Positions 10,855 through 58,520 of a DNA stretch of 64,000 nt are shown here, piece by piece. The stretch is from Somniosus microcephalus (taxonomy: Eukaryota), in assembly GCA_052327205.1 (NCBI GenBank), contig CM126220.1, positions 10,788,001 through 10,852,000 of the forward strand, given 5' to 3'. The translations under genes and the position numbers were made by a program. Within the stretch, counting starts at the first letter, position 1. Every line of letters starts with the position of its first letter. Under the pieces are notes generated by a model. That model had not been told where the DNA came from. It was given only the letters and a program-made list of their open reading frames with translations, and ran no database searches.

Positions 10855-11041
10855 GATAGCAAAATACTGCAGATGCTGGAAATCCGAAATCACAACAGAG
10901 AATGCTGGAAAAACTCAGCAGGTCAGGCAACATCCGTGGAGAGAAATTTGAGTTGACGTTTCGGGTCGAAACCCTTTTTCAAATTTCTCTCCACGGATGT
11001 TGCCTGACCTGCTGAGTTTTTCCAGCATTTTCTGTTGTTAC
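10855..11041. mobile_element. Fold-back Penelope-like pseudo-LTR insertion
   Basis: ~58-bp near-perfect inverted arms (~10894-10949 vs 10981-11037) around a truncated hammerhead half (minus: GAAAAAGGGUUUCGACCCGAAACGUCAACUC). Perfect 12-bp TSD AAAAAACCTATC (10843-10854, 11042-11053). Confidence 0.85.
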
Positions 11042-12132
11042 AAAAAACCTATCTCTGCATCAGTGCAGTATAGTGCTTGGAAAGGATTAGGAGAGGGGAC
11101 GTCTCACACCGTCTGGAGATCAAAGTACCAAATTTCCAAATCATTATCTCTTCTGTAACTGCTGTTCATTATGCTCCAATATTGTTACTTTTTCTATTTT
11201 TTTTGTGTAGTTTATTATTAATAATCAGACTTAATGCGATTCTGTTTTAAAGCTTCATTCGCTGGTGACAAGGTCATTGCTGTGTTAATGGTAACTGGCA
11301 GGATTGTCACTGAAAGTCATAGCATCTGATTAGATTTGACAGATTTACATATTATCACACAGACCGCCACAGACAATGTCCATATCCCTTTCAATTCAGC
11401 TAAATTGTTCCATGCAGATAGTACTGATGTAGCGTATATCCTACTGATGGGGCAGTTCAGGCTACATTTGGTGTAATAATGGCCTGCTCTAGTATTCTTT
11501 GACTTGTGCTCCTAATGCTCTCTTGATGGTTTAATCCTTGCAGTTGACAAATGAACAGGAACATGTTATTGTTACAGATCAGCATGTTTATGGTTCTTCA
11601 GCTTTTTGCATGCTATTTCTGGTTTTTATGTCACAAGATAAGTGGTTCCAAAAACATAATTTAGGCTCCATTCCAATTAGTAACTACTTTCTTAGTGCAT
11701 GGCTTGTCTGGCACCAGAACTATATAAAGCCACTGTGAACTGGAGTTGTACTAATGTCTGGATTTCCCTTATACAAATATATAGTAATAATAATAACAAT
11801 AATAGATTTCCAAATCTTTATACTTTCTTTTAATACTGTTTACTCCACACTTATATTTTTATATACAACCAGCAGAGAGGATTTTTGCAGGGGTGGGGGA
11901 ACTCTTCCTGTCTGGCTAGATTCAAGCAGTGCCTTTTATACTCTACACTTTGTAACACAGTTCTTCTTTCCAAGAGGGCCAGGCGGGTGGGAAAGCCAGG
12001 TGCTGCGTGTTTCTTCGTAGCTATCCTAAGTGCCATTTTGTGGGTGAGCCAGACTTTTACGGTCCTTCCTTTCAAGGTAGATTTAATTTTGTCACTAACT
12101 TTATTTAGTATGTTAGGACCAATACAGTATTA

Positions 12133-12638
12133 CCCTCGGGCCATCCTGGTGGGGGATGGAGGTGTAGAGGGATTGTACGTCCATGGTGGAGGGGGGGCGG
12201 TTGGGGCCAGGAAACTGGAAACTGTTGAAGTGGCGGAGGGCGTCCGAAGAGTCGCGGATGTAGGTGGGAAGAGACTGGACAAGGGGAGAAAAGATGGAGT
12301 CGGGATGGGAAGAGATGGGTTCTGTGGGGCAAGAACAGGCTGAAACGTGGGCTATGTGGAACAATCTTTGTTCCAGTCTCACACCTGGCAGCTACCTTTT
12401 GCCCTGCCCTGCCAGTACACTTTACACCTAATCCCAGCCTATTACCATCTCGTCTAGCTTCTAATCTCTTTTACTTCTTTTGGTTCTTTTATTCTTTTGT
12501 CCGATCGCAGCCCTGCCTCCGATGTAGTTTCTTTTCTTTCCAGTTTTGAAGAAGGGTCCAACCCGAAACGTCAACTCAAATTTCTCTCCACGGATGTTGC
12601 CTGATCTGCTGAGTTTTTCCAGCATTTTCTGTTGTTAT
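12133..12638. mobile_element. Rearranged PLE insertion: inverted RT fragment + forward pseudo-LTR
   Basis: Minus-strand PLE RT peptide VSACSCPTEPIS...LVQSLPTYIRDSSDAL...TMDVQSLYTSIPH (~12133-12345), then a plus-strand pLTR with hammerhead. 10-bp TSD TACAGTATTA (12123-12132, 12639-12648). Confidence 0.85.
12542..12576 (+). ncRNA. Minimal type I hammerhead ribozyme motif (C3U variant)
   Basis: AGUU-UUGAAGA-A-GGGU/CCA/ACCC-GAAAC-GUC-AACU: stem I AGUU/AACU, stem II, GAAA, GUC triplet. C3 is U. Confidence 0.7.
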
Positions 12639-13486
12639 TACAGTATTAAAAAATTGCACTTATGCCAACACACACATGCTTTGCAGAAGTGATCTGAATA
12701 TGCTTTTTGTCCAATGATACTAATCCATCACCTCAATGCTCACACCTCCACCAGTGACAGACCTATCGCCACCAATACTTCATGCTAATGCTGTACATCC
12801 CACCATACCCACTCTAAACACCAGCCAAGCTTCAAAGGACAACATTCAGAATTGTACTGCTACATCTGCAGCTCAAGTGAACATCGTATTAAAGAGACAC
12901 TCATTTATCATCATGCTTTACTGGTCACAACACTAAGTTACTTTGTTTCTAAAGGCCTTTTTACCTTAGAGCTCAGGGTAGTTTAGGCCTTTGCAGGGCA
13001 ATGCCAAAATCAACTCCCTGCATTTGTGTTAATATTTCAGTCTGCCACGGGTGGTCTCTATGCTGGTTGGAGACTGTTTGAGAGGATAGAGACCAGTTCT
13101 TCTGCACATACAGCTGCTCAACACGTTTAGTGGACAGCTGCTTTGATGAAAATGTGGGTGGTGTGCTGCCCTTAGCCGTTTGGAGGTTGGCTCATTCATT
13201 TTAGCAAGCGCCATTGATGGCACAGAAACTGTGCAGCTGCAGTCAATGTCACTGACATAAGGTAAAGCCACCGTAACTGGTACCGCTGTCTAATAAGCTG
13301 GCTACAACAAACCTCACCAAACTTGGACAAGAGAGTTCAGATTATTCTGAGTTCAGACCCTTAGTGTGGGAGATTAGTGCACAACTACTAGAGGTTATGT
13401 TATTTTAGTTGGATTATAATATTTGTGTAGAAATACAGTCAGAATAGAAAGATACTGTGCACAGAGAAGTTTACTCTGTAACATGC

Positions 13487-13862
13487 TGTTTTTCAAAATT
13501 CTCATCCTTGTTTTGAAATCCCTCCATGGCCTCACCCCTCCCTATCTCTGTAATTTCCTCCAGCCCCACAACCCCAGAGATATCTGCGCTCCTCTAATTC
13601 TGCCCTCTTGAGCATCCCTGATTATAATCGCTCAACCATTGGTGGCCGTACCTTTAGCTGCCAAGGCCCTAAGCTCTGAAATTCCCTGCCTAAACCTCTC
13701 CACCTCTCTTTCCTCCTTTAAGACACTCCTTAAAAATTATCTCTTTGACCAAGCTTTTGTTCATCTCTCCTAATTTCTCCTTATGTGGCTTGGTGTCAAC
13801 ATTTTTGTCTTATACTCATGTGAAGCGCCTTGGGACGTTTTACTATGTTAAAGATGTTGTTG
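13487..13862 (+). mobile_element. L2-clade LINE 3' fragment
   Basis: Peptide FKILILVLKSLHGLTPPYLCNFLQPHNP and tail tgtgaagcgccttgggacgttttactatgttaaa...ttgttg. Confidence 0.85.
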
Positions 13863-56450: not shown

Positions 56451-56924
56451 CCATCCTCCCTTTGCCCCACAATCCAATGCCCAATTAGGAAGTAGCTTTT
56501 CTAATTCTTGGGTCGTTTGGAGTTTGAAGCGCTCAGGAAAGTCTTTGTTGCGCACAAGAATGGAAACTGAAAAAAGGAACTCCAGGCCAGGTTGGAAGAG
56601 CTCGCAGACTGGATTCAGCATACAGTACATGACCTGGGCACTGCCAGTCTAGCAATTTTATAAATGCTTACTAATTTTATAGTAAAGACTTTTCAGAACC
56701 AATTTCCAGTGCAGTTCCTACCTGTTCCAGTTAAAGGGAGCAGGATGACTTGCGCCTCTTTAATCCGATATAGAAAATTATTTGTCTTCCCATCTTTGTC
56801 TCTTCATCTCCCAAAGGTGGTGATTAATGCTAGGGTAGGGTTCTACTGGTGCCAGCAGGCCTCTGATAACTGGCACAAATGGCCTTTCTTCACCTATGAG
56901 CCTTCATAATGAGAAAAGAAAAAA

Positions 56925-57317
56925 AAGACAGACTTGCATTTACATAGTGCCTTTCACGATGTCTCAAAGCGCTTTACAGCCAATGAAGTACTCTTGAAGT
57001 GTGTCACTGTTGTAATGTAGGAAATGCAGCAGCCAATTTGCGCACAGCAAGCTCCCACAAACAGCAATGTGGTAATGGTCAGACAATCTGTTTTAGTGAT
57101 GCTGGTTGAGAGGTAAATATTGGCCAGGACACGGGGATAACTCCCCTGCTCTTCTTCGAAATAGTGCCACAGGATCTTTCTCTGACAGTGTAACACTCCC
57201 TCAGTACTGCACTGGAGTGTCAGCCTAGATTTATGTGCTCAAGTCTCATGGAGTGGGACTTGAACCCATAACCTTCTGACTCAGAGGCGAGAGTGCTGCC
57301 CACTGAGCCGCGGCTGA
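56925..57317 (-). mobile_element. Deu-domain SINE with internal deletion
   Basis: Reverse complement of 52830-53275 including the head (ttgaaccc...ccactgagccgcggctg); part of the Deu core is missing at ~57180. Tail-only copies at ~20205-20320 and ~47660-47770. Confidence 0.88.
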
Positions 57318-58254
57318 GATAGTATTGGTAGATAATTCAGTTGTGGGGGCCGTCGCAGCCTGGATGTGCCTGACCTCATCCCACATCAGCACTCTCGCAC
57401 CTTTCCATTCTGCATTAGCACACTGGCTAGTGCTTTTAGTACTTTACTCTTATTTAACAATGCTCATTTCATAACTATATACACATCAGTAATGAAGCTT
57501 TTAGACAGTGAAGCACATTTAATGCCCCCAAATCTCTAACACAAACTAGTTTATTAGGAACTGCAGGAGCTACAACCAAAAAGGCCTGAAGTATGTTTTT
57601 AAAAATGTTAAAACCAGCTTAATAATCAGCAGTAACATCACAAAATGTGAAATAAACCAGATCAGAGACTCTTCAGCCTCCAGCATATTTGCTGTGTCGT
57701 GGATTTAATAAAAATAATTTGTTTCAGGTGAGAATAATGTTTCATTTATTTTCTTGTGGCTTCTTATTTTGCAGTCTCTGTGGAATAATATTGAGGTATT
57801 CAGGAAATGTAATTGCTGTGGGGTTTTGCACGTAGTCTGCAGAATGCAACCATTTCAACGCTTTAAATAAACACCTTTGAGGTGTTTCACACTCGCTTCT
57901 CATTGTCAGATTCTTTGAATAAACCTGTTTGTTCTCACTCGCATGTAGGTGAGAAATCTCGCACCTGATAAAACTACAGCGAGGTTGTTGGCTCTAACCC
58001 AGAGATAAAATCTGACTTCACTTCTGAGTAAAAACATTAAAGTAACAGGATATCTTTCCTGATCAAGTGAGAACGCTGTTTACTAAGTGCACAATTAAAT
58101 CTACAGTGCTGTAAAGTGAGGTCGATTCTGTGACTGAACCGCATTGCTATCCCCATCAGGTGACTGGGGACAGCATGCTTCTCAAAGGCCCAATACATTT
58201 CTCTAATTTTATTTAGTAACTTTCATAATTCCTAATTTCATAATTTAGAGTACA

Positions 58255-58520
58255 AACAAAGAAACTGGGAATCTGAAATAAAAACCCAATGTGCTAGAAA
58301 TGTATATTGGGTCCGTCAGCATCTGTAAAGGAATAGAAGACAGGTTAATGTTTCAGGCGTGGGCCTTCAGAACTGGCCCACACCTGAAATCTTAACCTAT
58401 GTATGTCTTGATACTGATGGTGTGTTCTGGTGAAGGGCCCACACCTGAAATATTAAGCTGCCTTGTTTTTTTCCACTTTGCAGACTCTGGTGGACCTGCT
58501 GTGTATTTTCTGTTATTCCA
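58255..58520. mobile_element. Old fold-back PLE pLTR with three hammerhead relics
   Basis: Minus relic 58342-58374 (agttctgaaggcccacgcctgaaacattaacct), plus half 58375-58399 and plus relic 58424-58457 (gttctggtgaagggcccacacctgaaatattaag), with outward-facing pLTR tails. Confidence 0.65.

What the first reader, a model, noticed from the sequence alone, without database searches (positions are those of the whole stretch)
10855..58520. Dispersed hammerhead-ribozyme system: several PLE pseudo-LTR families, mostly as short non-autonomous inserts
Seen: three motifs with near-complete hammerhead cores (12542-12576+, 37329-37365-, 50581-50617+) and at least five relics (10950-10980, 37670-37706, 45950-45985, 58342-58374, 58424-58457). 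Stems I and II differ in sequence between families but keep pairing (AGUU/AACU vs UCAC/GUGA; GGGU/ACCC, GGAGC/GCUCC, GGGUC/GGCCU). All three have an extra A after A9 and replace stem III with a short palindrome (ACGU, AAGCUU, AACGUU). Established: PLE pseudo-LTRs carry minimal type I hammerheads thought to cleave as dimers through a palindromic stem III, and an extra nucleotide between A9 and G10.1 is tolerated in viroid hammerheads. Inference: these are family-specific ribozyme/pLTR units mobilised in trans (retrozyme-like). The different palindromes could act as a dimerisation code that keeps families separate. I cannot tell whether these elasmobranch families have been described.
Basis: partly seen in the sequence, partly recalled or inferred. 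Interest (0 to 1): 0.8.

Follow-up and report, generated by a model that had tools for sequence, protein, structure and literature searches.

The report
Penelope retrotransposon hammerhead ends
These are real copies of the small hammerhead RNA motif that Penelope-type jumping genes are already known to carry at their ends, left here as cut-short copies of two ordinary protein-coding families rather than as a separate ribozyme system; the one new lead is that the youngest branch carries an altered core base pair that likely weakens self-cutting.

Summary
The motifs are real: 2 strict minimal hammerheads in the window against 0.01 in shuffles. They belong to two Penelope-like element (PLE) lineages: A (59,071 pattern matches genome-wide) and B (22,555). 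Both have RT/GIY-YIG ORFs; B has a full pLTR-ORF-pLTR tandem. The window copies are 5'-truncated or inverted insertions. Retrozyme-like tandem units are nearly absent (1 of 18 close pairs). The extra nucleotide, the palindrome and the families are already published (PMC4209133).

- Helix III is ACGU or AGCU, so two palindromes, not three.
- A x B dimers fail more at stem I than at helix III, so no 'code' is needed.
- The 37670 relic is a dead A-type end fixed inside B's pLTR.
- The 12542 motif has U3·G8.

New lead: along lineage A the core 3-8 pair went C-G to U-A (once), then to U·G in the youngest subfamilies, about a third of listed matches. Short copies start at the motif's front edge, not at the cut site. 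This scan has noted the same kind of element in this and other genomes.

The parts
10855..11041 (.). Head-to-head palindromic insertion of two A-lineage pLTR 3' ends. The minus arm (10983-10855) has the tail and a hammerhead of the U3-A8 subfamily type that lacks the 5' strand of stem I; the plus arm (10979-11040) starts just after the cut site. 12-bp target-site duplication at 10843-10854 and 11042-11053.
12133..12640 (+). Young A-lineage (A2) insertion: inverted RT fragment (12351-12142, minus strand, 93% to L182) joined to a pLTR (12367-12639). 10-bp target-site duplication at 12123-12132 and 12639-12648.
12542..12576 (+). Minimal type I hammerhead with U3·G8 core; stem I AGUU/AACU, stem II GGGU/ACCC, helix III ACGU, predicted cut after GUC
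37280..39523 (-). 5'-truncated copy of autonomous family B: RT plus C-terminal endonuclease ORF piece (39523-37716, stop at 37713) and a pLTR of about 435 nt (37712-37280); 96% to the full element in L393. No target-site duplication found.
37329..37365 (-). Intact minimal type I hammerhead of family B; stem I UCAC/GUGA, stem II GGAGC/GCUCC, helix III AGCU, predicted cut after CUU. TATA-like and initiator-like motifs lie directly upstream.
37561..37712 (-). Captured 3' end of an A-type pLTR (broken hammerhead at 37706-37670, the following ~60 nt, and a tail-like piece), fixed right after the stop codon in family B; A9 and the GAAA box are lost
44141..44181 (+). About 40-nt A-type pLTR 3' stub without a hammerhead
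45950..46067 (-). Old A-type pLTR 3' end (46067-46002) followed by a decayed hammerhead (45985-45950) with broken stem II and CA in helix III
50321..50681 (+). Family A pLTR of about 360 nt without ORF. 9-bp target-site duplication at 50312-50320 and 50682-50690.
50581..50617 (+). Intact minimal type I hammerhead, C3-G8; stem I AGUU/AACU, helix III ACGU, predicted cut after GUU. TTAAAA at -30 and an initiator-like motif overlap the start of stem I.
58265..58520 (.). Old head-to-head pair of decayed A-type ends (58377-58265 minus; 58424-58520 plus), with a further partial motif at about 58371-58397

Best explanation
The motifs are the minimal type I hammerheads in the pseudo-LTRs of two endonuclease-bearing Penelope-like retrotransposon lineages, and the window's inserts are 5'-truncated or folded-back copies likely made in cis by the elements' own reverse transcriptase. 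In a tandem master (pLTR-ORF-pLTR; hammerheads 3,148 nt apart in L393) transcription likely starts at an initiator 4-7 nt before the core, so the RNA would carry one hammerhead at each end. The two would pair through stem I and the 4-nt palindrome to form a double hammerhead, probably slow and protein-assisted. Reverse transcription likely starts just past the pLTR end, at the 'tail' site. Priming at the 3' copy would give ORF-bearing truncations. Priming at the 5' copy would run off the uncut RNA's 5' end and give stubs of about 110-150 nt that begin at the hammerhead's front edge. Shown: anatomy, copy counts, target-site duplications, ORF linkage, paired changes, 5'-end clustering. Inferred: promoter, priming sites, dimer formation, cleavage. 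Pairing was likely under selection in the masters, but the youngest A masters spread with a U3·G8 wobble.
For: RT ORF at 37716-39551. 86 scored genomic copies at 96-100% identity, several with 920-aa open frames. Full tandem in L393. A2 ORF hits RVT_1 and GIY-YIG below Pfam cut-offs; both ORFs show a CX4CxxC linker. ORF pieces upstream of 19/28, 21/29, 25/29 and 20/30 search-selected copies and of 43/96 copies picked by their 3' end. Tail in 39/96; 17 of 18 close pairs head-to-head. Target-site duplications of 9, 10 and 12 bp. In one stem II context, C3 goes with G8 in 100/100 listed hits and U3 with A8 in 68/100, G8 in 32/100 (counted by eye). Among 204 parsed copies, pair 2.1-1.1 is U-A 144, U·G 36, C-G 21, unpaired 3, and pair 10.1-11.1 is G-C 118, G·U 64, A-U 21, unpaired 1 (search-biased pool). 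5' ends: 18 of 96 in a 16-nt window at the core's front against 37 in the next 231 nt; 2 within 2 nt of the cut site against 0.8 expected. Literature: PMC4209133 (min-HHRs, mostly solo, tied to truncated PLEs), PMC8557442 (truncation, inversion, tail), PMC11167929 (internal RT start; cleavage needs protein and is dispensable for insertion in vitro), PMC3846280 (TATA plus initiator in a pLTR).
Against: No cleavage was shown. RNA-seq from a species that holds the element (two 2026 runs) covers both strands and shows no read-end pile-up at the predicted cut sites or start sites; such libraries read ends poorly. For all three homodimers the active double-hammerhead fold is 8-14 kcal/mol above the minimum-energy dimer. 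The 5'-end window was chosen after seeing the data, and an all-against-all retest left 9 copies in it (3.3-fold, p 0.002); six that left were palindromes matching other palindromes, three moved to +10, +11 and +19. The 96 copies come from the first 13 Mb of one contig. The 3-8 compensation is one event on the tree. The A2 and A3 subfamilies lack a TATA-like motif. 53 of 96 copies have no ORF piece nearby, so mobilisation of some stubs in trans is not excluded.
Confidence: 0.85

Rival explanations
1. The short hammerhead units are retrozyme-like non-autonomous elements that are transcribed and processed on their own and mobilised in trans.
For: Five of seven window insertions and 53 of 96 sampled copies lack ORF pieces. 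Head-to-head mini-palindromes recur with similar junctions. The window's 12.1-kb inversion junction is shared with L182. A preprint reports non-LTR retrozymes derived from pLTRs, including in one chondrichthyan (10.64898/2026.07.22.740005).
Against: Same-strand neighbours within 1.2 kb: 1 of 18 pairs in the 3'-anchored set, 5 of 44 A pairs and 0 of 13 B pairs over all loci. Stub sequences fall into the same subfamilies as ORF-bearing copies. 5' ends are staggered.
Confidence: 0.1
2. The helix III palindrome is a selected dimerisation code that keeps families from cutting each other.
For: Lineage A keeps CG (82 of 100 listed; 14 are CpG-decay CA or TG) and family B keeps GC (99 of 100). The A x B double hammerhead has near-zero predicted stability.
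Against: There are only two palindromes. All A subfamilies share ACGU across the whole tree, and A x A2 pairs perfectly. Stem I accounts for 7 of the 9 A x B mismatches. The ORFs of A2 and B are only about 33% identical, so plain divergence explains the difference. The partner is likely in cis.
Confidence: 0.1
3. The hammerhead is now vestigial in lineage A: the fold is kept as a protein-binding hairpin or promoter element, and cleavage is not needed.
For: The youngest subfamilies spread with U3·G8. There is no footprint at the cut site. Naiad PLEs lack canonical hammerheads (PMC8557442), and core mutants do not affect insertion in vitro (PMC11167929).
Against: The earlier C-G to U-A double change, the near absence of C3·A8 (0 of 100 listed; 6 of 204), and conservation of the rest of the core in both lineages point to catalytic constraint until recently.
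Confidence: 0.3

Closest known systems
Minimal hammerheads (min-HHR) in pLTRs of metazoan PLEs, including fish Xena, Poseidon and Neptune (Cervera and De la Pena 2014, PMC4209133)
   Same: Type I; short stem I; extra nucleotide between 9 and 10.1; palindromic 15.2-16.2; several consensus families per genome; mostly solo or inverted copies; a U3-A8 core variant (Schistosoma Cercyon)
   Different: Stem II is 4-5 bp here against 7-8 bp in Schistosoma. 10.1-11.1 is often G·U or A-U. A U3·G8 core is fixed in the youngest subfamilies. Sharks are not named in the parts I read; its supplements were not seen.
Endonuclease-bearing PLEs of the Neptune clade (PMC8557442)
   Same: Single ORF with RT and C-terminal endonuclease, CX4CxxC linker, partial tandems, inverted 5' copies, 30-40-bp tail
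   Different: Family B's pLTR carries a captured dead end of an A-type pLTR. The clade was assigned by the linker motif only, not by an RT tree.
PAc Poseidon element of Anolis (PMC11167929)
   Same: Hammerhead next to the ORF start, tail marking the internal RT start, no read ends at the cut site in RNA-seq
   Different: Different clade; here the predicted start codon lies downstream of the cut site, whereas in PAc it is at the start of stem II.
Non-LTR retrozymes of animals (PMC7229834; bioRxiv 10.64898/2026.07.22.740005)
   Same: Type I hammerheads and pLTR-related sequence
   Different: Retrozymes are head-to-tail tandem units of 150-450 bp expressed as circles; the copies here are solo or head-to-head and grade into ORF-bearing copies.

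Membership tests
PLE minimal type I hammerhead | Core boxes CUGANGA and GAAA with a UH cleavage site | tested here: met
   Met at 50581 and 37329; 12542 differs at position 3 (U3·G8)
PLE minimal type I hammerhead | Stems I and II pair, with compensatory changes across families | tested here: met
   Pairs 2.1-1.1, 10.1-11.1 and 3-8 tabulated over 204 copies
PLE minimal type I hammerhead | Extra nucleotide between 9 and 10.1; palindromic 15.2-16.2 in place of helix III | tested here: met
   A inserted in all 7 strict hits in 1 Mb of spaced samples and both window hits; CG or GC in 5 of the 7
PLE minimal type I hammerhead | Located in the pLTR of a PLE | tested here: met
   L393 tandem and L182 pLTR-ORF junction; window 37280-39523
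PLE minimal type I hammerhead | Self-cleavage as a dimer | not testable with these tools
   Needs an in vitro assay; RNA-seq showed no end pile-up
EN+ Penelope-like element (Neptune type) | Single ORF with RT and C-terminal GIY-YIG endonuclease | tested here: met
   RVT_1 above cut-off for B; RVT_1 and GIY-YIG below cut-off for the A2 piece; B has no GIY-YIG hit but aligns with A2 over that region at about 33%
EN+ Penelope-like element (Neptune type) | pLTR tandems, inverted 5' copies, optional 30-40-bp tail | tested here: met
EN+ Penelope-like element (Neptune type) | Placement in the Neptune clade by RT phylogeny | not tested
Non-LTR retrozyme | Head-to-tail tandem units, each with a hammerhead | tested here: not met
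   1 of 18 close pairs is same-strand in the 3'-anchored set; none in the window
Non-LTR retrozyme | Own non-coding family with fixed ends, distinct from an autonomous parent | tested here: not met
   Staggered 5' ends continuous with ORF-bearing copies
Non-LTR retrozyme | Expressed as circular RNA | tested here: inconclusive
   No unit-length back-joint at the cut site in two ordinary RNA-seq runs; not RNase R libraries

The most novel reading that the evidence does not exclude
Lineage A is a dated natural mutagenesis series of a PLE ribozyme. Successive masters kept the catalytic 3-8 pair by a C-G to U-A swap, then the youngest masters (about a third of 59,000 matches) spread with a U·G wobble that weakens or gates cutting. 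This would mean that PLE hammerheads are tuned to cut slowly or only with the element's protein, leaving uncut RNA as the template for copying.
Probability: 0.3. Interest if true: 0.55.

Novelty: new member of a known kind. Interest (0 to 1): 0.3.

Why it matters
What the hammerhead does for endonuclease-bearing PLEs is stated as unclear in PMC8557442, and cleavage was dispensable in the one in vitro system (PMC11167929). This genome offers C3-G8, U3-A8 and U3·G8 versions from one master lineage, in known order and with tens of thousands of copies, plus an unrelated family with a canonical core. That makes a direct rate comparison easy. The system itself, and the retrozyme and code ideas, add little.

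Tried and rejected
- Rfam scan of the window: no hammerhead family match at E up to 10; only hairpin look-alikes.
- Relaxed descriptor on 1 Mb: 18 hits against 7-11 in shuffles, so it was not used to find new families.
- Splice acceptor at the pyrimidine tract plus CAG before stem I in lineage A: no matching joint in RNA reads; an initiator reading fits the 5' ends better. One DNA contig skipped 103 nt with intron-like ends in B's pLTR; not followed.
- The idea that changes at 3 and 8 are silent codon changes (my note): dropped, because the motif likely lies in the 5' leader upstream of the AUG.
- Empty-site B elements lacking the captured relic: none recognisable among the 80 hits that did not match the relic's start; most were point mutants of it and some ran into other sequence.
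- Papers not held: Lunse et al. (PMC5785218), PMC1986816, PMC2271363. The measured effect of U3·G8 is therefore not sourced.
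Full report
1. Observation. All eight sites are present. A strict type I descriptor (CUGANGA, optional extra base, stem II of at least 4 bp, GAAA, UH, stem I of at least 3 bp) finds 2 hits in the window against a mean of 0.01 in 100 dinucleotide shuffles. 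It finds 7 hits in 100 evenly spaced 10-kb genome stretches against 0-1 in each of 10 shuffles. A profile search with six window queries gave 40 merged hits in that 1 Mb and 11 in the window. Rfam finds no hammerhead here. Helix III is A-CG-U at 12542 and 50581 and A-GC-U at 37329. The 12542 core starts with U3.

2. What carries them. The minus-strand frame 37716-39551 encodes a reverse transcriptase. A search of the genome returned 86 scored copies at 96-100% identity, several with a 920-aa open frame. L393 holds a full pLTR-ORF-pLTR tandem with hammerheads 3,148 nt apart. This is family B. In all 20 ORF-bearing copies examined the pLTR begins with the '37670 relic' and ends with the intact hammerhead. 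The relic aligns with an A-type pLTR end and tail (score 111; shuffled maximum 43). It is therefore a captured dead end fixed in the family, not a separate insert. The other motifs belong to lineage A. Its young subfamily A2 has long RT and endonuclease frames upstream of the pLTR, about 33% identical to B. Exact-pattern counts are 59,071 for A-type and 22,555 for B-type hammerheads, with 0 for the reversed controls. Both ORFs show a CX4CxxC linker, which PMC8557442 ties to Neptune PLEs; no RT tree was made.

3. Truncated copies or retrozymes. ORF pieces lie upstream (either strand) of 19 of 28 A, 21 of 29 B, 25 of 29 A2 and 20 of 30 U3-A8 copies; these sets were chosen by similarity and favour long copies. 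A fairer set was picked by a 30-nt motif downstream of the cut site (63,957 matches; first 100 listed, all in the first 13 Mb of contig C1; 96 distinct after merging identical ones). In it, 43 of 96 have ORF pieces within 1.4 kb, 39 have the tail, and 28 have an inverted pLTR end upstream. Of 18 neighbour pairs within 1.2 kb, 17 are head-to-head and 1 is head-to-tail. Three window insertions have target-site duplications of 12, 10 and 9 bp; none was found for the other three tested. This is the truncation, inversion and tail pattern described for PLEs (PMC8557442, passages). It is not the tandem unit that defines non-LTR retrozymes (PMC7229834, passages; bioRxiv 10.64898/2026.07.22.740005, parts 1-3 of 5; its supplements, which list chondrichthyan families, were not available).

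4. Where short copies start. 18 of 96 5' ends fall from 6 nt inside to 9 nt upstream of position 3, against 37 in the next 231 nt. That is 7-fold, but the window was chosen after looking. An all-against-all retest left 9 (3.3-fold, p 0.002). Six that left were palindromes matching other palindromes at the same junction, and three moved to +10, +11 and +19. Only 2 start within 2 nt of the cut site (0.8 expected). In A and B, which are otherwise unrelated, a TATA-like word lies 30 nt before an initiator-like motif at the front of stem I (initiator consensus recalled; a TATA plus initiator in a pLTR is reported in PMC3846280, passages). A2 lacks the TATA-like word. In L395 the fold-back junction of a B palindrome falls on the predicted +1. 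PMC11167929 (parts 1-2 of 4) shows that a PLE RT starts internally at the tail site. I infer that the stubs are run-off copies from the 5' pLTR end of uncut element RNA. Earlier notes of this scan gave this lead.

5. Selection on the fold. With stem II held constant, C3 occurs in 686 copies and goes with G8 in 100 of 100 listed. U3 occurs in 2,142 copies and goes with A8 in 68 and G8 in 32 of 100 listed (counted by eye). One exact U3-A8 33-mer occurs 1,094 times. In the broader A pattern the first 100 hits are 60 C-G, 32 U·G, 6 U-A and 2 C·A (counted by eye). Among 204 parsed copies of a pool of 279, pairs 2.1-1.1 and 10.1-11.1 each take three paired forms, with 3 and 1 unpaired cases. Trees were built with positions 3 and 8 masked (83 of 107 rows; 85 of 196 rows after dropping truncated copies and subsampling). 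Both are ladders. C3-G8 gives U3-A8 once (support 100/95), and U3·G8 is nested inside it (100/92) with the shortest end branches. The root is a midpoint; the order rests on the ladder, the end-branch lengths and the C3-G8 state of the captured relic. So the compensation at 3-8 is a single event, and the wobble is the latest state. U3-A8 is published as a natural variant (PMC3088659, section 8; PMC4209133). My searches found no paper on a natural U3·G8 PLE core, but three key papers were not held. That C3U lowers activity in minimal hammerheads is recalled, not sourced.

6. The code idea. In a double hammerhead both helix III and stem I form between the two copies. On natural window motifs, A x A2 has no mismatch. 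A x B and A2 x B each fail at 7 of 8 stem I pairs and 2 of 4 helix III pairs. Helix III is CG in 183 of 204 A-type copies, with most of the rest CpG decay, and GC in 99 of 100 listed B hits. Families A and B would not cross-react, but deep divergence explains that, and subfamilies of A are not separated. A search for hammerhead, heterodimer and Penelope found no paper. The active dimer fold is 8-14 kcal/mol above the minimum-energy dimer for all three homodimers, in line with low reported activity.

7. RNA. Two 2026 RNA-seq runs of a species holding the element cover both pLTRs on both strands. Neither shows a read-end pile-up at the cut site, a clear splice joint, or a unit-length back-joint. 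Such libraries are weak for ends, and read-through from dead copies dominates.

8. Known. PMC4209133 (parts 1-2 of 4: abstract, results, discussion, part of methods; supplements not seen) already reports the minimal motif, the extra nucleotide, the palindrome, consensus families, mostly solo copies tied to truncated PLEs, inverted pairs and low dimer activity. PMC6765202 (passages) reviews dimer cleavage. A search for Penelope, shark and hammerhead ribozyme returned one review, which I did not read, so I cannot say that these families are undescribed.

9. Verdict. New member of a known kind; interest 0.3. The useful residue is the ordered C-G, U-A, U·G series and the captured dead end in family B.

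Noticed in passing
window 37561-37712 (-); L061-L080: Family B's pLTR carries a fixed, dead 3' end of an A-type pLTR right after the stop codon, flanked by a 9-nt direct repeat: one PLE lineage captured inside the terminal repeat of another.
   Followed up: partly
window 12132-12639; L182:1276-1775: The junction between the inverted ORF piece and the pLTR is shared with a copy on another contig (95%), so a rearranged master was itself copied.
   Followed up: partly
L182:1664-3274: The A2 reading frame is open through the hammerhead and the pLTR end; an AUG about 20 nt after the cut site would make the last 60 nt and the tail coding.
   Followed up: partly
L316, L336, L342, L350, L366, L120, L153; window 10855-11041: Recurrent head-to-head mini-palindromes whose fold-back junction lies at the front edge of the hammerhead.
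   Followed up: partly
window 23841-27740 (-): Near-full-length LINE with an open 993-aa endonuclease-RT frame and upstream ORF1 pieces; related LINE fragments lie at 35.6-37.3, 39.5-40.2 and 45.3-45.8 kb. The family B copy sits inside such a fragment.
   Followed up: no
window 37351-37455 (run X17): One DNA contig skips 103 nt with intron-like ends, the acceptor falling inside the B hammerhead core; not seen in the RNA runs.
   Followed up: no
L114:4911, L126:3024, L138:570, L144:9989: Another repeat gave four relaxed hammerhead-like hits with the same sequence context; it may be coding sequence of an LTR element.
   Followed up: no
L170, L178: Two A-type copies share an A6-to-U core change, possibly a further subfamily.
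   Followed up: no
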